A stretch of 64,000 nt of DNA from an uncultured Spirochaetota bacterium (GCA_963820525.1 CAWGAA010000003.1:320001-384000), one strand, 5' to 3'. Shown: positions 8,000-16,590, numbered from the stretch's first letter. The notes: generated by a model from the letters alone, not told the origin. Translations and numbers: made by a program.

Positions 8000-8247
8000 A
8001 ATAATCAACTGAAGTGGGTGAAGGATGTTCTTGCGCTGTCGCCCCTGCGGCGCGCTTGGCGGTGTCGCGTTTCGCGGCTCTCGCAACTTGCTTACGAAAG
8101 TTGCTGCCGCCCAATGGCCGACGCCGCCGTTGGCATTTCCGCTGTCGCGGTTGGGATTCCCCATGGCTCTCGCCGTTTCTTCGAAACGGCTGCCGCCCTG
8201 GGGCCCCGTCGCGGCGTGCATAGCACGCCGCTGGAATACTCGAAAAT

Positions 8248-8817
<570 letters not shown>

Positions 8818-9487
8818 CGGGGGAAGGGGTGAGTGAGAAATGAAGCTCTGGGCGTACCCCGCCCGAGGGGATTCACTCTCAACCGAGGCACCTGTTCCGT
8901 GGCAGCCCTCGGGCGGGTCGCGTGCTCCGCTACAAGTCCTCGGCGCAGTAGGAGATCCAGAGGAATGTCACACCCCGGTCGGCCTCGGTCGCTGTGATTG
9001 CGCGCCTCCGGGCTTTCCGCTGCGCCCGCTCACGCGGAGGTGACTGTACATGCCCTCTGCCTTCGGCTACTCGCGAAATCGAGGCGGAATCTGCTCGGCA
9101 CCCCCTGCCCGCACTGCCATCAAGCAGCCGTATATGCCTCCCGTTTTCTTGATGCATGCAGTCGGCATCAGCGGCAACTACCCTCCCCGCCGCAAAGCTG
9201 GCTTACGCCCAGCGGGGCACCAACACCCTCCAGCTTATCTTCCGCCTCCACTTCCCCGCCTTCGCCGAGCTCTATGAGCAGCGCTATGCAAAGGAGTCCG
9301 GCCAGTTCCGCCTACACCGCATCACCCGGGTGACAGAGAAGTTCCTCCGCTGCGGGGATTACTCCCATGGGGTCGCCCGTATCCAATGCACAAACCCCGA
9401 CTGCCGCCTCGAGCTGTTCCGCCCTTTCAGCTGTAAAGGATTTTACCTTTGCCCCTCTTCATATGATAACCAAACGAAAGGGTATGA

Positions 9488-9618
9488 TGGAAAAGGCAGG
9501 GAAAGCTAAGTCCTACTCATGCTCTGCACTGGAGAAGCTGAGAGCACCCGTGCTTCCCTGCCTTCCTTCTGACCGCTTGTAGTGGGGTGGTTGTCCTCAT
9601 ATGAGGGGCGCGGCAGGA
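9488..9618 (+). ncRNA. Putative IS110 bridge RNA (target-binding and donor-binding loops)
   Basis: Stem AAGGCAGGGAAAGC/GCTTCCCTGCCTT, then stem CTGACCGC/GCGGCAG enclosing TAGTGGG and TCATATGA, which equal the two element ends. Confidence 0.7.
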
Positions 9619-10298
9619 GGGCATTGTAATACCGGGAGGATCGTCATGAAGCAGTTTGTCGGAATCGACATGGGATCGCAGAAGCATTCTGTTTGCATCC
9701 TCGATGAACAGAGCGAAAAGATCAAAGCCCTTGAGATCGGCAACACCCTCGAGCAATTTCGAATGCTTGAGCAATACCTCGACGGCAAAGAGGATGTGCG
9801 AGTGTGCTGCGAGGGAGTACATGGGCCCCTTCTGGGATATTTGAAAAGCCGCGGAGTACTGCTCTATCCCGTCAACCCTTTGAAGATCAAACGGTTTCGC
9901 GAGATTCGAGCTCTTTCGGGAGACAAGCACGACGCCTTGGATGCCCGCTGCCTGGCAGAGTACCTGCAGACCAATCACCAGCTGATGCGTCCATTCAGCC
10001 ACTACAGTGATGCTGTGGAGGAGTTGAACTTGCTGCGCATCTCCCATGATCGGGTGACCAAAGAGCACGCTCGCTATGCGAACAAGCTGATATTCCTTCT
10101 GCGTGAATACTTTACGCTGTATGAAGGGCTTTTCAGCACCGCAGTGCCGCAAATACTGCTGGATTTGATACTTGCCTACCCCACCTGGGGGAGCATCAAG
10201 GGCCTTCCAGAGCCCATCCTATATAAGAGGCTCTAACATAAAGACTGCTAGACTTTTTCTCAAAAACAAGGAATGATCCTCCCAACTGGGAGGAATAT

Positions 10299-11119
10299 GT
10301 GAAGCTCGAAAGTCTACTTCCCAACGAGCTATGGAAGGTAGTGCAGCCGTTGCTACCCCCGCCAAAACCAAGGCGGTTCAAGTTTCCCGGGAGAAAACCC
10401 ATGGATCCCCGAAAAATCCTCACGGGAATCTTATATGTTCTCAAGAGCGGCATTCCTTGGGAAATGCTGCCCCAAGAGTTAGGATTTGGTACAGGGATGA
10501 GCTGCTGGCGATACCTGCGCGCATGGCAAGAGCAGGGCGTCTGGCAACGCATCCATAAGGTGTTGCTATCCAAGCTGCGAGGAGCTGATAAGATCGATTT
10601 CTCTCGTGCTGTTGTTGATAGCTCATCTGTACGAGCCGTCTTGGGAGGGCCAAAACGGGGCCGAACCCGACAGATCGCAGGAAAAAGGGGACAAAACACC
10701 ATCTCATTACCGAAGCTCAGGGGATTCCCCTTGTGGTCTGTGTCACGGAGGCGAACAGACACGACGTGACTCAACTATTGCCTCTGCTTGATGCGATTCC
10801 CTCGATCGGAGGCAAAAGGGGTCGGCCCCTCAAAAAGCCAAAAACACTTCAAGGTGATTGTGGCTATGATTCTGATCCGCACCGACGTGAAATAAAGAAA
10901 CGCTGCATTGTCCCCCTTATCCGTAGGCGTAGAACTGCTCACGGCAGTGGACTTGGTAAGACACGTTGGGTGATCGAGCGCACCCATTCTTGGTTACATC
11001 AGAACAGGCGCCTGCGTGTTCGCTTCGAGAAACGAGCAGACATTCATGAAGCTTTTCTTGTTTTAGGGTGCATTATGATCTGTTGGTCTGCATTCACAAC
11101 ATGGAGCTCATTATGTTAG
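10299..11119 (+). CDS. IS5 family transposase, two ORFs joined by a -1 frameshift near 10645-10655
   Basis: ORF1 GILYVLKSGIPWEMLP; -1 frame AKTGPNPTDRRKKG..DCGYD..RWVIERTHSWL. Confidence 0.85.
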
Positions 11120-12861
11120 CCCGCATTTCTCACAAATGGATATGAAAAAGCCTTTCGCTCTGGTATAATTGCTTTGCAACAAACAAAATAAACCAGAACA
11201 GAAAGGCTATACGATGCAAACAGACTGTACACCATCCCTGTTTAGCTTTCAAGACCTTGGCAAGAAAAAGGTAGTCGGAAACTTCGACGGAGGCGCGATC
11301 AGTTCCGATGCCGGCGCTCTCATTCTTCGAGAGGTCGAACGCGCCACAGGCATCATCAAAGCATTCGCGGGCTGTTTCACAGACTATCGAGAGAAAGGCT
11401 ATATCGAGCATTCCATCGAGCAATTGATAAGCCAAAGGGTATTCGGCATTTGCCTGGGATACGAAGACCTCAACGATCACGACCAGCTGCGCAAAGATCC
11501 CGTTCTGGCTGCCGTTTGCGGGAAACTCGATGTCAACGGGGAAACGAGGAGGCAGAAACGGGACAGAGGCAAAGCCCTTGCCGGAAAAAGCACGCTGAAT
11601 CGGCTTGAGACCGCCGGCGGGGCAAGCCTCTCTACGCATCGATACAAGAAAATCACGGTGAACGAAACAATGGTTGGGATGTTCCTGGTGAACACATTCC
11701 TGGCCAGTTATGAGCAAGCTCCTGAAGAAATCGTGTTGGATCTGGATGCAACCGACGACCCTCTGCACGGCAATCAAGAGGGCAGGTTCTTTCATGGCTA
11801 TTATGATTGTTATTGCTACCTGCCGTTGTACATCTTCTGCGGGGATCATCTTTTATGTGCGAAGCTACGTCCCTCCAATATAGACGCATGTTCGGGTGCC
11901 GAGAAGGAGTTGGCGAGGATCGTTGCGCAGATCCGTGAGCGATGGCCGCAGGTACGTATTGTTGTGCGGGCCGACAGCGGGTTCTGCCGGGAAGCGATCA
12001 TGGTGTGGTGCGAGTCCAACGACGTGGATTTCCTGTTCGGAATCGCGAAAAACGCACGCCTCTTACGCAAGATCCGCAAGGAGCTTTCAGAAGCCCGTAG
12101 GCAGTATCTGTCCACTGGTGAGCCGTCGCGAAAGTACGCGGAGCTGATCTATCGGACGAAAAAGACATGGTCGAAAAGCAGACGTGTTGTCGCCAAGGCG
12201 GAGTATCTGCGCAAGGGAGAGAACCCTCGGTTTGTGGTGACTTCACTTATGCAGGACCGCTTCCCTGGCCAGCAGCTGTACGAGCAGCTCTATTGTGCTC
12301 GCGGAGACATGGAGAATCGTATCAAAGAACAGCAGCTTTACCTTTTTGCAGATCGAACCAGTTCCGCCACGATGAGGGCGAATCAGCTTCGGTTGTGGTT
12401 CTCCTCTGCGGCCTACGTAATCATGAGTGCCCTCAGAAGGACCGCTTTGAAGGGGACAGAGCTGGCCTCGGCACAGTGCGACACGATTCGTTTGAAGCTA
12501 TTGAAGATTGGCGCACAGGTGCGCGTCAGTGTGCGCCGGATCTATGTGAGCTTCGCAAGCGGTTATCCATATCAAGAGCTTTTCCGTCAGGTGATTCTGA
12601 GTATTCACGAACTCTCCCTTCAATCGGGTTAGCGTGTATTGAGCCTTGTCTTGAGTAGTTTATTGGGAGAAGACTGTCCTGAAGTCGCCGAATCTTCCCT
12701 TATGAGCTGTAAAGTGCGCTCAATCGGGCGATTGGACTGACTCGGGTCACGAAATCGATCTACGTGTAGGGGCTGACAGCAAGGAATAGACCGTTTTTCA
12801 AAGTTGAGCCCCGCCTCATGATGATCAGACTGCGCAGAGTGCCGTTTGTGAGAAATGCGGG
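11120..12861 (+). mobile_element. IS1380 family element (1742 bp)
   Basis: Perfect 17-bp TIR CCCGCATTTCTCACAAA; TTAG duplicated at 11116-11119 and 12862-12865. Confidence 0.95.
11214..12632 (+). CDS. IS1380 transposase, intact
   Basis: FDGGAISSDAG, LDLDATDDPLHG, RADSGF, RGDMENRIKE motifs. Confidence 0.95.
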   Translation: MQTDCTPSLFSFQDLGKKKVVGNFDGGAISSDAGALILREVERATGIIKAFAGCFTDYREKGYIEHSIEQLISQRVFGICLGYEDLNDHDQLRKDPVLAAVCGKLDVNGETRRQKRDRGKALAGKSTLNRLETAGGASLSTHRYKKITVNETMVGMFLVNTFLASYEQAPEEIVLDLDATDDPLHGNQEGRFFHGYYDCYCYLPLYIFCGDHLLCAKLRPSNIDACSGAEKELARIVAQIRERWPQVRIVVRADSGFCREAIMVWCESNDVDFLFGIAKNARLLRKIRKELSEARRQYLSTGEPSRKYAELIYRTKKTWSKSRRVVAKAEYLRKGENPRFVVTSLMQDRFPGQQLYEQLYCARGDMENRIKEQQLYLFADRTSSATMRANQLRLWFSSAAYVIMSALRRTALKGTELASAQCDTIRLKLLKIGAQVRVSVRRIYVSFASGYPYQELFRQVILSIHELSLQSG

Positions 12862-13583
12862 TTAGAGCCTATAAGTTTTTTATCTACCACAACTACCGAC
12901 GCACAAGGTCCATCGCCCGGATCCTCACGCGGATTTATTCCTACGATCAGCTGCTGAGCAGCGAGGTGCAGCTGGTGTTGGCAGGGGAAGCGCAGATGGT
13001 CGCCCATATCCTGCAGGTTCTCAACGAGCGGCTGAAGCAGCTGGAGGCACGCATGAAGGAGATCATGCTCACACATCCGTTGGGACCCGTATTCGATTCC
13101 ATTCCCGGAGCGGGTAAGGTACTGGCGGGAAAGCTCATGGCACTTTTTGGGGATGACAAAGATCGGTTTGTCAAGGCAGGGGAGATCCAGGCGTTGTTCG
13201 GCACCGCACCGGTGAACTTCCAGACCGGCAATTACCACAAGGTGCATATGCGCAGAGGATGCAATCGAGAAGCGCGGGCCACGTTGTATTATTTCTCTTT
13301 CTGTTCGATGCGCTACTGCAGCTGGGCGCGAGCCTACTATGACCGACAAAGAGCGCATGGGAAAACACATGCGGTATCTGTTCGGGCACTTTCAAACAAG
13401 TGGATCAAGATCCTGTTCCAGTTGTGGAAACACGAACTGGAGTTCCCCCGATTTCGTGGACACCCTGAATTGCACCTGCGTCTCGGTTTCGGGGGGGGTA
13501 TCCAAACACCACCTGCCTTCCGAAAACGCAACCACGGCCCTCTACGCGCAAGGCTTTTTCCTCACTCTGGCTTGGATCGTCAA

Positions 13584-14453
13584 TCATGCCGTCTTCCGCT
13601 CCTCGAGCTCCTCATATTCGGTCGGTGTGAGGTAGCCGAGGTACGAGTGAAGCCGCTTGCGATTATAGAAGATCTCCACGTATTCGAATATTGCTCTCCT
13701 GGCCTCCTCTCTGCTTCGGTAGATCTTGTCCCGAATCAACTCTGCTCTCAAGGTCTTGAAAAACGTCTCCGCGCACGCGTTGTCCCAACAGTCGCCCTTA
13801 CGGCTCATGCTTTGAATGAATCCGTGCCCTTTGGCAAACTTTTCAAACTGACCGCTGGTATACTGCACACCGCGATCGGAATGAAACATCAGTCCCCGCG
13901 ACGGGCGGCGACGAATCGCGGCCATGACTACCGCCGCCAGCACCAGCTCGGCGCTCAGCTCGCAGCTCAGCGACCAGCCCACCACTCGACGGGAGTACAG
14001 GTCCAGCACGATACAGAGATACATCCACCCTTCGGCTGTCGCAACGTAGGTTATGTCGGACACCCACACGCGATTCGCCGCGGAGGCTTCGAAGTTCCTG
14101 TTCACTATGTTTTCGGCCACTTCCTGGCCGTCTTTCGAGTGCGTGGTCACTACAAACCGCCTCTTCGGCTGCGGCCCAAGGGCATTCTCTCTCATGATTC
14201 GGGCAACTCGGTTCTTCCCCACATGCCGCCCACGCCTCAGCAGTTCTTCCCGCATGCGCGGGCTTCCGTAGCTGTGACGCACCTCGCCCTGGATCTTCCG
14301 GATCTGCTCGACCAGCTCCTTCTCCTCAACTGCTCGTGCACTCTCTCCACCGTCGAGCCAGGCATAGTACCCACTGCGCGCTACTCCCAATACTTCCGCC
14401 ATCTTCTCCACGCCGTGGGTTCCCCGCTGTTTACTCATGATCTGGTACTTCAT
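13584..14453 (-). CDS. IS3 transposase OrfB (DDE)
   Basis: WVSDITY, HSDRGVQY, DNACAETFF, YNRKRLHSYLGY. Confidence 0.93.
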   Translation of the reverse strand: MKYQIMSKQRGTHGVEKMAEVLGVARSGYYAWLDGGESARAVEEKELVEQIRKIQGEVRHSYGSPRMREELLRRGRHVGKNRVARIMRENALGPQPKRRFVVTTHSKDGQEVAENIVNRNFEASAANRVWVSDITYVATAEGWMYLCIVLDLYSRRVVGWSLSCELSAELVLAAVVMAAIRRRPSRGLMFHSDRGVQYTSGQFEKFAKGHGFIQSMSRKGDCWDNACAETFFKTLRAELIRDKIYRSREEARRAIFEYVEIFYNRKRLHSYLGYLTPTEYEELEERKTA

Positions 14454-14740
14454 CTCGGGGGTCTGGAGAAGATGGCTGTTGCTTTTCTTAGGATGTCCCG
14501 TTCCTCACGCAACTCCTTGACCTCTTTGCGCAAGGCCGCCAATTCCTCGTCACGGGACCTGCCGTTGCCTGGGAAAGCTCGTGTCCCGTCCTCACTGAAT
14601 TGCTTCCTCCAGCGGTAGATCTGTCCGCTGCCGATTCCCAGATCCCGTTCAATCTCATGTCCCGGCTTTGTCCCTGACTCCAGGAGCCGGATAGCATCGA
14701 GCTTGAACTCTTTGGTGTATTTCTTCCTCGTATCTGCCAT
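14450..14740 (-). CDS. IS3 transposase OrfA (HTH)
   Basis: RKKYTKEFKLDAI..ERDILRKA; ATGA overlap with orfB. Confidence 0.92.
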   Translation of the reverse strand: MADTRKKYTKEFKLDAIRLLESGTKPGHEIERDLGIGSGQIYRWRKQFSEDGTRAFPGNGRSRDEELAALRKEVKELREERDILRKATAIFSRPPR

Positions 14741-15936
14741 TATCTTTCCTTACCCCTCTAAAATACTGCTTAACCATGTGTCTATGAAATCGGGGTAGGT
14801 CCAAACAGCCCTACGATGAAAAGAGGTGCAATGCCGAAATCTCAATGAACGTTGCTTGACATAGTGGGCGTGCTCCCAGAAGCGCACCCTCCTGTTCGCC
14901 GAATACCTCGACCAGCAGCTCCTGCTCACCCTTCCCCATCGACAATTCGTGTTCTCTATCCCAAAGGCGCTCCGCGTTTTCTTCCGCCATGACCAGCGTC
15001 TGTTCTCCGATGTCTCATCTCTCATCTTTGCCCTGATCTCGGAGTTCTACCGGGCATCGGCAAGATCAACCATAAGGAGCGCGGCGGTCGTGGCTTTTCA
15101 ACCCTTCGGGGACATGCTGCGAGCCAACTCCCATTGGCATGCCCTGATTCTGGAAGGAGGGTTCGCCCCTGAGGGGCAGTTCGTATTCCTCCCAATCCAT
15201 AATACACAGAAACTCACCGAGTGCTTCCGCCGACGGGCCATCGCGATGTTCCTCGACAAGGGTCTCATCGCCGAAAGCTTCGCAGAAATGCTTTTACGCT
15301 GGAAACACTCCGGCTTCAGTGTGGACAACACTGTTCGGATTGCAGGCGACGATCACAAAGCACGAGTTTCGCTGGCGCAGTATATCGCCCGTGCCCCTCT
15401 GTCCCTGGAGAAGCTGCGCTATGATCCCCTCGGCGAGAAGGCCGTCTACCACTCCACCTTTAACCCCTACCTCGGAGAGAACTTAAAGGTCTGGGATGCG
15501 CTGGACTTTCTCGCCCTTGCAACCTCTTTCATTCCGCCCCATGGCGTGCGTCTCATCCGCTACTTCGGATTGTATTCCTCGCGCAGTCGCTGGAAATGGC
15601 CCCTCTGGAAACACGTGGCAGCTCATGCTCCACGGGGATGGAAGAAGATTCACGAACGAGACAGCGCGGAGCCAGAACCCAAGGCGCCCACTTGCACCCT
15701 CCGTGAATCTGCCTCACGTTCCGCATGGGCGCGACTGATAGCCAAAGTATACGAGGTCGATCCTCTGGTCTGTGCTTGGTGCGGATCGCAGATGCGGGTA
15801 CTCGCCGTGATCACCCATGCGGCGGAGGTGAAGAAGATCCTGCGCCATTTGATTAAGATTGGCCGCCCTCCGCCCGGCCTGGACCCCTCGGCGTTGAACT
15901 GATTCTTCGCAGCCCAACTCACATCGTCGGCCCTAG

Positions 15937-16170
15937 TACAAGGAGAGGGAGATCCTTGATCTCGGTCTTCAGTACGAGGCCGATTCGCTACTATCGAGAG
16001 TGTCTTTCACCTCGGGTGCCGCTGGATTTCCTGGGCGGGCTCGCGCTTTGCGCAGCCTACTTCGACTGCCGAATGTATTGCGTGCACCACAAGGGCATCG
16101 CAACCAGCAGGAATTCGACTTACTGGATCTAATGGGGAAAATGGAAAAACGTCGTTTTGCCTATCATCTA
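15937..16170 (+). repeat. 234-bp direct repeat (oriIS-side end), second copy 29489-29722
   Basis: Read by eye: identical except 2 substitutions. Confidence 0.95.
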
Positions 16171-16425
16171 GAGGTAGGGCCCTTAAGACCTCTCGATGAC
16201 CAGGGGAAAGGGGTAGTTGAACGCGAGATTATGCTGCGCTCCCCCGGGGATGTACTTCTTTGCCTCCTCGGTCTTCTGTCGGGATACGGGACATGTCTCG
16301 TTGAAGTACCTGAGATAGCACTCCATTGCGTCTTTCTTGATCCTCATTGGGGGGAGAGACATGAGCCTGTCGAGCTTTCTATAGATCTCTCGAGCATCCG
16401 GGTATTGAGAAATTCCGTAAGCCAT
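16171..16425 (-). pseudogene. 5' fragment of a class-III aminotransferase (GSA aminomutase-like), cut at the transposon end
   Basis: AKKYIPGGAQHN..FPLVIERS*GPYL runs to the junction at 16170; RBS GGAGG. Confidence 0.7.
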
Positions 16426-16590
16426 TAGCCTATCCTCCGTTCCGGCGAGGAAAGAGAGTGAGTAATCACTCACACAAGAGCGCAGCAGAACCCGGAGGAA
16501 GAATCAAGACCCCCCAACGCAGGATTTCCTCGATCGAGGGCAGCGCTTTCTGGTTGCTTAATATCAAATTATCCTTTTTTCACCTTCGAG

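What the first reader, a model, noticed from the sequence alone, without database searches (positions are those of the whole stretch)
9457..9645. IS110 bridge RNA with readable guides matching its own donor junction and insertion site
Seen: the predicted circle junction is TAGTGGG(14862-14868)-CT-TCATATGA(9459-9466). The second stem-loop of the left end contains TAGTGGG (9580-9586) and TCATATGAGG (9597-9606), the reverse complement of CTTCATATGA with one G-T wobble. The first stem-loop contains GAGCAC (9542-9547), the reverse complement of target flank GTGCTC (14870-14875). The left-target guide (about GTCCTACT vs GCCCCTCG) matches only loosely. The core reads CT at the left junction and CG at the right. 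Known: this is the IS621 bridge-RNA architecture. Inference: a new bridge recombinase/RNA pair with an 8-nt palindromic right donor arm, caught at an imperfect target.
Basis: partly seen in the sequence, partly recalled or inferred. Interest (0 to 1): 0.75.

Follow-up and report, generated by a model that had tools for sequence, protein, structure and literature searches.

The report
Dead IS110 element with bridge RNA
This is the left end of an IS110-type jumping gene that encodes a two-loop guide ("bridge") RNA naming the element's own ends and its landing site inside another transposon's gene; it is a new but broken member of a kind described in 2024.

Summary
Window 9459-9645 is the left end of an IS110-family element inserted in an IS91-like transposase gene.

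A covariance model built only from 43 distant relatives finds this stretch, and nothing else in the 64 kb (9490-9624, 61.4 bits, E 3.6e-13). It folds into a target-binding loop followed by a donor-binding loop.

- **Donor loop:** it repeats both element ends, far beyond chance.
- **Right target guide:** it pairs 8 of 9 with the right flank.
- **Left target guide:** the match cannot be told from chance.

Three points need correction:

- **No duplicated CT/CG core.** An empty isogenic site shows that CG belongs to the element and CT/CC to the target. Only one T is shared.
- **Not an odd target.** Three diverged IS91 copies are hit at the same nucleotide.
- **This copy is dead.** Three nested insertion sequences split its 398-codon gene, and Thr sits where 80 of 80 relatives have the catalytic Ser. 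An uninterrupted copy occurs in a wetland metagenome contig.

Verdict: a new member of a known kind, of moderate interest.

The parts
9156..9458 (+). 5' part of the IS91-like transposase gene (the target). Its last bases, TGCCCCTCT at 9450-9458, are the left target arm.
   Evidence: Pfam Zn_Tnp_IS91, E 4.5e-06. The reading frame continues at 14871 as Cys-Pro-Ser|Cys-Ser-Gln-Lys-Arg. An empty paralogue was found.
9459..9645 (+). Left end of the IS110-family element, which encodes the bridge RNA. Its first 8 nt, TCATATGA (9459-9466), form the right donor arm, a palindrome.
   Evidence: The boundary comes from the occupied and empty sites. The family model matches 9490-9624 at 61.4 bits, E 3.6e-13.
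9495..9562 (+). Target-binding stem-loop. Basal stem 9495-9506 with 9552-9562; 5' loop 9507-9520 (left target guide); upper hairpin 9521-9538; 3' loop 9539-9551 (right target guide plus handshake-like bases).
   Evidence: Covariance-model alignment. Helix covariation in the family. Guide-flank covariation in the family. The reverse complement of 9539-9547 matches 14870-14878 at 8 of 9 positions.
9565..9620 (+). Donor-binding stem-loop. Stem 9565-9576 with 9610-9620. Left donor guide GTAGTGGG at 9579-9586. Right donor guide plus extension TCATATGAGGGG at 9597-9608.
   Evidence: Covariance-model alignment. TAGTGGG equals the right-end terminus and TCATATGA equals the left-end terminus. Matched changes in relatives.
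9646..10227 (+). Recombinase gene, piece 1 (194 codons): RuvC-like DEDD domain.
   Evidence: Pfam DEDD_Tnp_IS110, E 1.1e-27. The acidic residues D8, E56, D96 and D99 are conserved in the alignment.
10228..12869 (+). Nested IS5-like element (DUF4096 transposase) flanked by the duplication TATAAG. It carries an IS4-like element (11117-12864) in its right inverted repeat.
   Evidence: Pfam. The IS4-like unit recurs 4 more times in the genome at 99.7-99.9% identity. A metagenome contig joins 10221 to 12870.
12876..13437 (+). Recombinase gene, piece 2: Tnp (Transposase_20) domain. The Thr codon at 13224-13226 sits at the catalytic-Ser position.
   Evidence: Pfam, E 3.8e-14. Alignment to IS621 chain 8wt6_A, E 9.5e-10, puts the Thr opposite chain residue S243, which is native S241. 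80 of 80 relatives have Ser there.
13438..14802 (-). Nested IS3-family element (rve integrase core), flanked by the duplication AAC.
   Evidence: Pfam. Copies at 98% identity elsewhere in the genome. A metagenome contig joins 13434 to 14804.
14806..14870 (+). Recombinase gene, piece 3 (last 17 codons, stop at 14857-14859) and the right end. TTGACA at 14856-14861 is a -35-like hexamer. The terminus reads CATAGTGGGCG.
   Evidence: Read directly. The C-terminus ...NVA* is shared with P0001 and P0002. The right-end terminus is conserved in relatives.
14871..15902 (+). 3' part of the IS91-like transposase gene. The right target arm TGCTCCCA lies at 14871-14878.
   Evidence: Pfam Y2_Tnp, E 1.1e-12.

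Best explanation
Window 9459-14870 is one copy of an IS110-group insertion sequence, about 1.4 kb without its passengers. It sits in the Cys-Pro-Ser-Cys coding motif of an IS91-like transposase gene.

Its 187-nt left end encodes a bridge RNA with two stem-loops. In the second (donor) loop, the 5' side repeats the last bases of the right end (TAGTGGG). The 3' side is the complement of the first 8 bases of the left end (TCATATGA) and runs on with GGGG, which is complementary to the target bases next to the left junction. In the first (target) loop, the 3' side pairs with the right flank (GTGCTCCCA, 8 of 9). The 5' side pairs only loosely with the left flank.

By analogy with IS621 (inferred, not shown here), the circularised element would place TTGACA of the right end 17 nt upstream of a -10-like TAACCA in the left end and so transcribe the RNA. 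Recombinase dimers holding the two loops would then join the circle junction to the IS91 site.

This particular copy cannot move. Its recombinase gene is cut by an IS5-like element (itself carrying an IS4-like element) and by an IS3-family element, and it has Thr at the catalytic Ser position. The only other copy in the genome is truncated.
For: Locus anatomy: searches give Pfam DEDD_Tnp_IS110 (1.1e-27) and Transposase_20 (3.8e-14) on the pieces, and name the nested IS families.

Boundaries: the left flank of the occupied C1 copy is 150 of 150 identical to an empty site 15 kb away. The insert is exactly TCATATGA...CATAGTGGGCG.

Site specificity: the window and C1 copies are 365 of 368 identical in the element but 104 of 150 in the flank. 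The peat copies are 142 of 143 identical in the element against 79 of 150 in the flank.

RNA family: model R1, built from 43 relatives and not from this element, has 27 pairs. 94.7% of cells are paired, and 17 pairs show changes on both sides; 0 of 500 shuffles reach that. R1 gives one hit in the window, two in the 5.05-Mb genome, both of them the IS copies, and 70 hits in 84 sources searched.

Guide covariation in relatives: the left guide matches its own flank at 7.1 of 9 positions against 5.13 +/- 0.14 after permutation, with 0 of 5000 permutations as high. The variable part of the right guide matches at 3.14 of 6 against 1.63 +/- 0.15, again 0 of 5000. The result is the same with one pair per distinct guide (33 and 27 pairs). 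The position matrix shows an antidiagonal with z 3.5-7.5.

Donor loop: matched changes between the left donor guide and the right end occur in L032, L087, L089 and L035. Matched T-to-C and A-to-G changes between the left end and the right donor guide occur in the window and in L089, and L094 also shows compensation.

Chance figures for the window itself.

Dead copy. Uninterrupted form elsewhere: one contig of run X3.
Against: No RNA has been seen. No listed sequencing run holding the stretch is on record as RNA, and Rfam has no matching family.

The left-guide match in the window is no better than chance. With wobble allowed, 613 genomic sites score at least as well as the IS91 site on a simple 16-position count. 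So the pairing as I scored it does not explain the repeated choice of IS91.

The window RNA is a divergent member of the family: 61 bits against 104-137 for most relatives, with a 2-nt insertion in the left guide.

The -10-like hexamer TAACCA is weak.

The relatives used for the permutations are related to one another, so the permutation counts overstate independence.
Confidence: 0.9

Rival explanations
1. This is an IS621-like element with a shared CT core duplicated at both junctions. The right copy has mutated to CG, and the element was caught at an off-target or imperfect site.
For: CT and CG do flank the element. The left-guide match is loose. IS621 uses a CT core covered by all four guides (PMC11208160, passages seen).
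Against: The empty isogenic site holds a single CC. Both right junctions in the genome read CG. In relatives the corresponding bases are TG in 29 of 31 loci, and in 0 of 31 do they equal the left-junction pair. An empty site in a relative's genome (G092) likewise shows no duplication. Three diverged IS91 copies are hit at the same nucleotide.
Confidence: 0.07
2. The repeats of the element's ends inside the left end are DNA sites (subterminal repeats bound by the recombinase), not RNA guides. The stem-loops are incidental.
For: No transcript has been observed here. The donor-loop strings are also direct and inverted repeats of the termini at the DNA level.
Against: Helices flanking the repeats keep pairing through changes on both sides: 17 of 27 pairs and 107 cells, with 0 of 500 shuffles reaching that. 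The first loop covaries with the flanks outside the element, which a DNA-binding site for the element's own ends would not do. The family's recombinases align with IS621 and ISCro4, whose RNA-guided complexes are solved.
Confidence: 0.03

Closest known systems
IS621 bridge RNA and recombinase (Durrant et al. 2024, PMC11208160; Hiraizumi et al. 2024, PMC11208158; PDB 8wt6)
   Same: The recombinase has the same two domains, and its C-terminal piece aligns to 8wt6_A at E 9.5e-10. The RNA is encoded in a long left end next to a short right end. The target loop comes first and the donor loop second. The 5' sides read like the top strand of the left arms, and the 3' sides are complementary to the right arms. 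The bases 3' of the right guides pair with the other DNA, as the handshake guides do. A -35 hexamer lies in the right end.
   Different: Protein similarity is remote: the N-terminal piece does not match IS621 at E 0.01. No Rfam family matches. No dinucleotide core is repeated at the two junctions; only one T is shared. The right donor arm is an 8-nt palindrome. The target is a coding motif of another transposase rather than a REP element. This copy is broken.
ISCro4 transposase (PDB 9t56)
   Same: Both pieces of the window protein align to it, at E 6.7e-4 for the N-terminal piece and 2.2e-9 for the C-terminal piece.
   Different: The similarity is distant, and its RNA and target were not compared here.
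ISPpu10 and other IS110 members that target stem-loops (bioRxiv 10.64898/2026.03.19.712850, abstract only)
   Same: Most relatives of the window element sit in the loop of an inverted repeat. Examples are L072, L093, L109 and L110, where the loops read TCC, TCCG or TCCA followed by TG.
   Different: The window element's own site in IS91 has no such inverted repeat, and its two target guides are not alike, as they are in the relatives.
IS1111-group elements with seekRNA (group contrast from an Extended Data legend of PMC11208160; the name seekRNA seen only in a search listing)
   Same: They belong to the same protein superfamily and also use an RNA guide.
   Different: IS1111 elements have short left ends and long right ends. 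This element has 187 nt on the left and 11 nt after the stop codon on the right, so it belongs to the IS110 group.

Membership tests
IS110-family bridge recombinase element | Recombinase with an N-terminal RuvC-like DEDD domain and a C-terminal Tnp domain | tested here: met
   PF01548 at E 1.1e-27 on 9646-10227 and PF02371 at E 3.8e-14 on 12876-13436. D8, E56, D96 and D99 are conserved.
IS110-family bridge recombinase element | Catalytic serine in the Tnp domain (IS621 S241) | tested here: not met
   Thr (codon 13224-13226) aligns with chain residue S243 of 8wt6_A, which is native S241. 80 of 80 relative loci have Ser there. I read this as decay of this copy, not as a family trait.
IS110-family bridge recombinase element | Intact, mobile unit | tested here: not met
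   The gene is in three pieces, split by three nested IS. The second genomic copy is truncated at the position matching window 9826. An uninterrupted form is seen only in a contig of run X3.
Bridge RNA (IS110 group) | Non-coding RNA encoded in a long left end next to a short right end | tested here: met
   The left end is 187 nt (9459-9645). The right end is 11 nt after the stop codon (14860-14870).
Bridge RNA (IS110 group) | Two stem-loops, each with an internal loop, conserved with compensatory changes | tested here: met
   27 pairs, 94.7% of cells paired, 17 pairs with changes on both sides; the family model finds only the IS copies.
Bridge RNA (IS110 group) | The donor loop holds a copy of the left donor arm and the complement of the right donor arm | tested here: met
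   TAGTGGG is a 7 of 7 match, plus a G-A wobble one position upstream. TCATATGA is an 8 of 8 match. Matched changes occur in relatives.
Bridge RNA (IS110 group) | The target loop's 3' side is complementary to the right target arm | tested here: met
   8 of 9 positions in the window. Family antidiagonal with z 3.5-7.5.
Bridge RNA (IS110 group) | The target loop's 5' side reads like the left target arm | tested here: inconclusive
   The family shows covariation. In the window, the family register with a 2-nt bulge gives 6 identities and 2 wobbles out of 9 (my reading). The best ungapped match is not beyond chance.
Bridge RNA (IS621 type) | A core dinucleotide shared by donor and target, repeated at both junctions and covered by all four guides | tested here: not met
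The empty and occupied sites show no duplication.
Bridge RNA (IS110 group) | The RNA is transcribed from a promoter formed at the circle junction and is bound by the recombinase | not testable with these tools
   Read from the sequence only. TTGACA at 14856-14861 lies 17 nt upstream of TAACCA at 9467-9472, and relatives have TATACT in that place. No RNA run is listed.

The most novel reading that the evidence does not exclude
This subfamily may work without a core shared by donor and target. The two bases 5' of the crossover are (T/C)G in the element and C plus any base in the target.

The junctions always keep the top-strand arrangement: the target's bases stay on the left and the element's on the right. 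0 of 31 relatives show a repeated dinucleotide there.

The bases 3' of the right-hand guides pair with the incoming, non-cognate strand. For the target loop this is 53 of 62 against the donor and 11 of 62 against its own target. For the donor loop it is 49 of 62 against the target and 34 of 62 against its own donor.

That would make these insertions a natural record of top-strand-only, handshake-driven transfer. Recent preprints propose such transfer for CazIS110-1 and IS621 (abstracts only).
Probability: 0.3. Interest if true: 0.6.

Novelty: new member of a known kind. Interest (0 to 1): 0.4.

Why it matters
Bridge recombinases are being developed as programmable DNA-insertion tools, and each natural recombinase-RNA pair with readable guides adds to the parts list.

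This one belongs to a small, little-sampled branch. Only 2 full-length proteins reach 51% identity, and 9 clusters score E <= 1e-30 among 1.84 billion representatives.

It has three features worth noting:

- Its natural target is another transposon's transposase gene.
- Its right donor arm is an 8-nt palindrome.
- It has no repeated core at its junctions, which bears on how strand exchange is set up.

The copy in this genome is a fossil, so any test needs an intact homologue.

Tried and rejected
**Searches that found little**

- Rfam at E <= 1 on 8000-16500 gave no bridge-RNA-like family, only a 23S fragment and two chance-level hits.
- A single-sequence locus search in genome contigs found nothing. 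The alignment A2 was needed.
- Within the host's order, 8 of 91 other genomes have IS110 proteins at E <= 1e-10, but only at 29-33% identity. There are no close relatives there.
- No RNA holder is listed for the stretch, so nothing can be said on expression.
- A full-text search for the right-end string found only unrelated primer sequences.
- The scan's earlier notes held nothing for this place or for these words.

**Analyses that did not settle a question**

- The single-strand fold of 9459-9645 is not unusually stable (z -0.93). The fold alone says nothing; comparative data were needed.
- I tried to fix the IS621-style register of the core by testing three registers and a single-base overlap. 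Sequence alone cannot settle where the strands are cut.
- A genome-wide count of sites pairing with both target guides, wobble allowed, gave 613 sites at 14 or more of 16. The IS91 sites are therefore not singled out by that score.
- The contig of run X3 that joins across the IS3 element places the joint 1 nt from the position the AAC duplication predicts. At depth 6 I did not interpret this.
- The run tables did not show whether the intact contig has Ser or Thr at the nucleophile codon (the list was cut).

**Rows dropped before counts**

- In some searches I dropped the window, L002 and L113-L116 (the same element), and L088, L107, L122, L026 and L089 (target loop cut off or poorly aligned).
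- In one search I dropped the same rows but kept L089.

Full report
**1. The observation**

In the whole window, TAGTGGG occurs only at 9580 and 14862, and TCATATGA only at 9459 and 9597, counting both strands. In 200,000 shuffles of the left-end interior, the two never occurred together in that order within 40 nt.

The reverse complement of 9539-9547 equals 14870-14878 at 8 of 9 positions, and 147 of 20,000 shuffled loops do as well.

The loose left-guide match (GTCCTACT against GCCCCTCT) is not beyond chance: 4,303 of 20,000 shuffles reach it with wobble allowed.

**2. The locus**

The element lies inside an IS91-like transposase gene. Zn_Tnp_IS91 covers 9156-9458 and Y2_Tnp covers 14871-15902. 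Across the insertion the frame reads Cys-Pro-Ser | Cys-Ser-Gln-Lys-Arg.

The IS110 recombinase gene is in three pieces:

| Piece | Coordinates | Content |
|---|---|---|
| 1 | 9646-10227 | DEDD_Tnp_IS110, E 1.1e-27 |
| 2 | 12876-13437 | Transposase_20, E 3.8e-14 |
| 3 | 14806-14859 | last 17 codons and the stop |

- Between pieces 1 and 2 lies an IS5-like element, flanked by TATAAG. An IS4-like element (11117-12864) sits in its right inverted repeat and has four further copies in the genome at 99.7-99.9% identity.
- Between pieces 2 and 3 lies an IS3-family element (13438-14802), flanked by AAC, with 98%-identical copies elsewhere.
- With the passengers removed, the frame is 194 + 187 + 17 = 398 codons. 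It ends in ...NVA, like the two closest full-length relatives, which are also 398 aa long.

**3. Boundaries and target choice**

The genome holds one more copy, on contig C1. It matches the element at 365 of 368 positions and is cut off by an IS3 copy at the position matching window 9826. It sits in a different IS91 copy, whose flank is only 104 of 150 identical to the window's.

That flank is 150 of 150 identical to an unoccupied IS91 copy 15 kb away, which reads ...CTGCCCCTCC|TGTTCCCAGAAGCGC. An orphan right junction elsewhere on C1 reads ...CATAGTGGGCG|TGTTCCCAGAAG. The insert is therefore exactly TCATATGA...CATAGTGGGCG, and nothing is duplicated.

Four peat-metagenome loci (L113-L116) carry the same element with an internal deletion. 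They match it at 142 of 143 positions, in a third IS91-like flank that is 79 of 150 identical, and at the same point.

Three diverged copies hit at one nucleotide speak for a preferred site, not an accident.

**4. The RNA family**

Close relatives are rare:

- 2 proteins at 51% identity.
- 9 clusters at E <= 1e-30 among 1.84 billion representatives.
- None above 33% identity in the host's order.

With an alignment of 12 proteins I fetched 128 loci. By their record titles, most are metagenome-assembled genomes of Spirochaetota and Leptospirales. 57 of the 128 hold TTGACATAG and 49 hold ATAGTGGGTG near the end of the gene.

The sequence upstream of the gene aligns well across 43 distinct loci. 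A structure with four helices is kept in 94.7% of cells, and 17 of 27 pairs change on both sides; 0 of 500 shuffles reach that, and slid controls pair at only 40-58%.

The covariance model R1 was built from these 43 sequences, none from the window's element. It gives:

- One hit in the window: 9490-9624, 61.4 bits, E 3.6e-13, full length.
- Two hits in the 5.05-Mb genome, both of them the IS copies.

Rfam has nothing matching.

**5. The guides**

Passages of Durrant et al. (PMC11208160) state the rule. [quoted passage not shown]

*Target loop.* In the relatives, the 5' side of the first loop matches its own left flank at 7.1 of 9 positions, against 5.13 after permuting flanks (0 of 5000 permutations as high). 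The variable 3' side pairs with its own right flank at 3.14 of 6, against 1.63 (0 of 5000). The result is the same with one pair per distinct guide. The position-by-position matrix shows the expected diagonal and antidiagonal. These loci are kin, so the counts overstate independence.

*Donor loop.*
- Changes in the right end are mirrored in the left donor guide in L032, L087 and L089 and in L035.
- The window and L089 both have C instead of T at the second base of the left end, and both have G instead of A in the right donor guide.
- In the window, the reverse complement of 9597-9608 is CCCCTCATATGA. The left junction reads CTCTTCATATGA, and CTCCTCATATGA in the C1 copy. The 3' side of the donor loop therefore pairs across the recombinant junction, with one or two G-T wobbles.

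*Left target guide in the window.* The model places a 2-nt insertion in it. In the family register this gives 6 identities and 2 wobbles out of 9, which is within the family's range but not significant alone.

**6. The 'core'**

- The element-side pair is CG in both right junctions of this genome and TG in 29 of 31 relatives.
- The target-side pair varies with the target: CT, CC and TC here, and CC, CG, CA or CT in the relatives.
- In 0 of 31 relatives do the two agree. One register to the right, 7 of 31 agree. A single T (9459 and 14871 here) is shared in 29 of 31.
- An empty site in a relative's genome confirms the geometry: AGCTCAACATCCG|TGTTTCGCTTG.

The two bases 3' of the right target guide pair with the element's last two bases in 53 of 62 cells, but with the target's own in 11 of 62. 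Those of the right donor guide pair with the target's in 49 of 62 and with the donor's in 34 of 62.

This resembles the handshake pairing and post-exchange core pairing seen in the IS621 structures (PMC11208158, passages). It also fits the top-strand transfer proposed in two preprints (abstracts only). Where exactly the strands are cut cannot be read from sequence.

**7. State of this copy**

Besides the three nested elements, the codon aligned with the catalytic Ser of IS621 is Thr, while 80 of 80 relative loci have Ser there. The DEDD residues are present.

A contig of a wetland metagenome run (X3; 1,050 nt, depth 6) runs from 9799 to 10221, on to 12870-13434, and then to 14804. An uninterrupted gene about 97% identical therefore exists elsewhere. 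Contigs of three runs read C at 9458, which is the C1-type flank.

**8. How it most likely works**

*Shown:* the element's boundaries, its site preference, the conserved two-loop RNA structure, and the correspondence between guides and DNA.

*Inferred from IS621:* circle formation; a junction promoter (TTGACA, 17 nt, then TAACCA preceded by TG, where relatives have TATACT); recombinase dimers on each loop; and strand exchange next to the shared T.

**9. Verdict**

The element is a new, divergent member of a known kind, preserved here as a fossil.

The absence of a repeated core, and the pairing of the right-hand guides with the incoming strand, are the only parts that go beyond the textbook picture. 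They rest on 31 related loci, and the cut positions could not be fixed.

Noticed in passing
G000 C2:9505 and C2:5745 (loci L153, L154): Two IS91-like 3' halves begin at exactly the nucleotide where the IS110 is inserted (|TGTTCGCAGAAACGC). Unrelated genes lie directly to their left, and the left context of the first (…GGGCCCCTGTT|) resembles the left target arm. This may be a trace of an IS110-mediated rearrangement followed by excision.
   Followed up: partly
window 8261-8940 (-): Only the last third of a 23S rRNA (model positions 2046-2912, 538 bits, with an internal gap) lies next to the start of the IS91-like gene. It is a truncated rRNA fragment in a region full of insertion sequences.
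   Followed up: no
loci L072, L093, L098, L109, L110, L084 and others: Most relatives of the element are inserted in the loop (TCC, TCCG or TCCA) of an inverted repeat, just before a TG. Their left and right target guides carry nearly the same sequence, as expected for a hairpin target. The window's IS91 site has no such repeat.
   Followed up: partly
G000 C2:98356 (-): An unoccupied site in a gene unrelated to IS91 reads TTGCCCCTCT|TGCTCTCA. It shares 15 consecutive bases with the window's reconstructed target and matches the right target guide perfectly.
   Followed up: no
G000 C1:1111557-1111621 (locus L155): An orphan 65-nt right-end fragment of the IS110 (65 of 65 identical) starts at the very point where the IS3 element is inserted in the window copy. 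It is preceded by an unrelated ORF, so this region too has been rearranged.
   Followed up: partly
window 11117-12864 within 10228-12869: The IS4-like element sits inside the right inverted repeat of the IS5-like element. That IS5-like element has no other copy in the genome.
   Followed up: no
loci L036 and L087, right junctions: These two relatives read TA instead of TG after ...GTGGG / ...GTAAG at the right junction. They are the only such exceptions among the right ends listed. They might show the other way of resolving unlike bases at the crossover.
   Followed up: no
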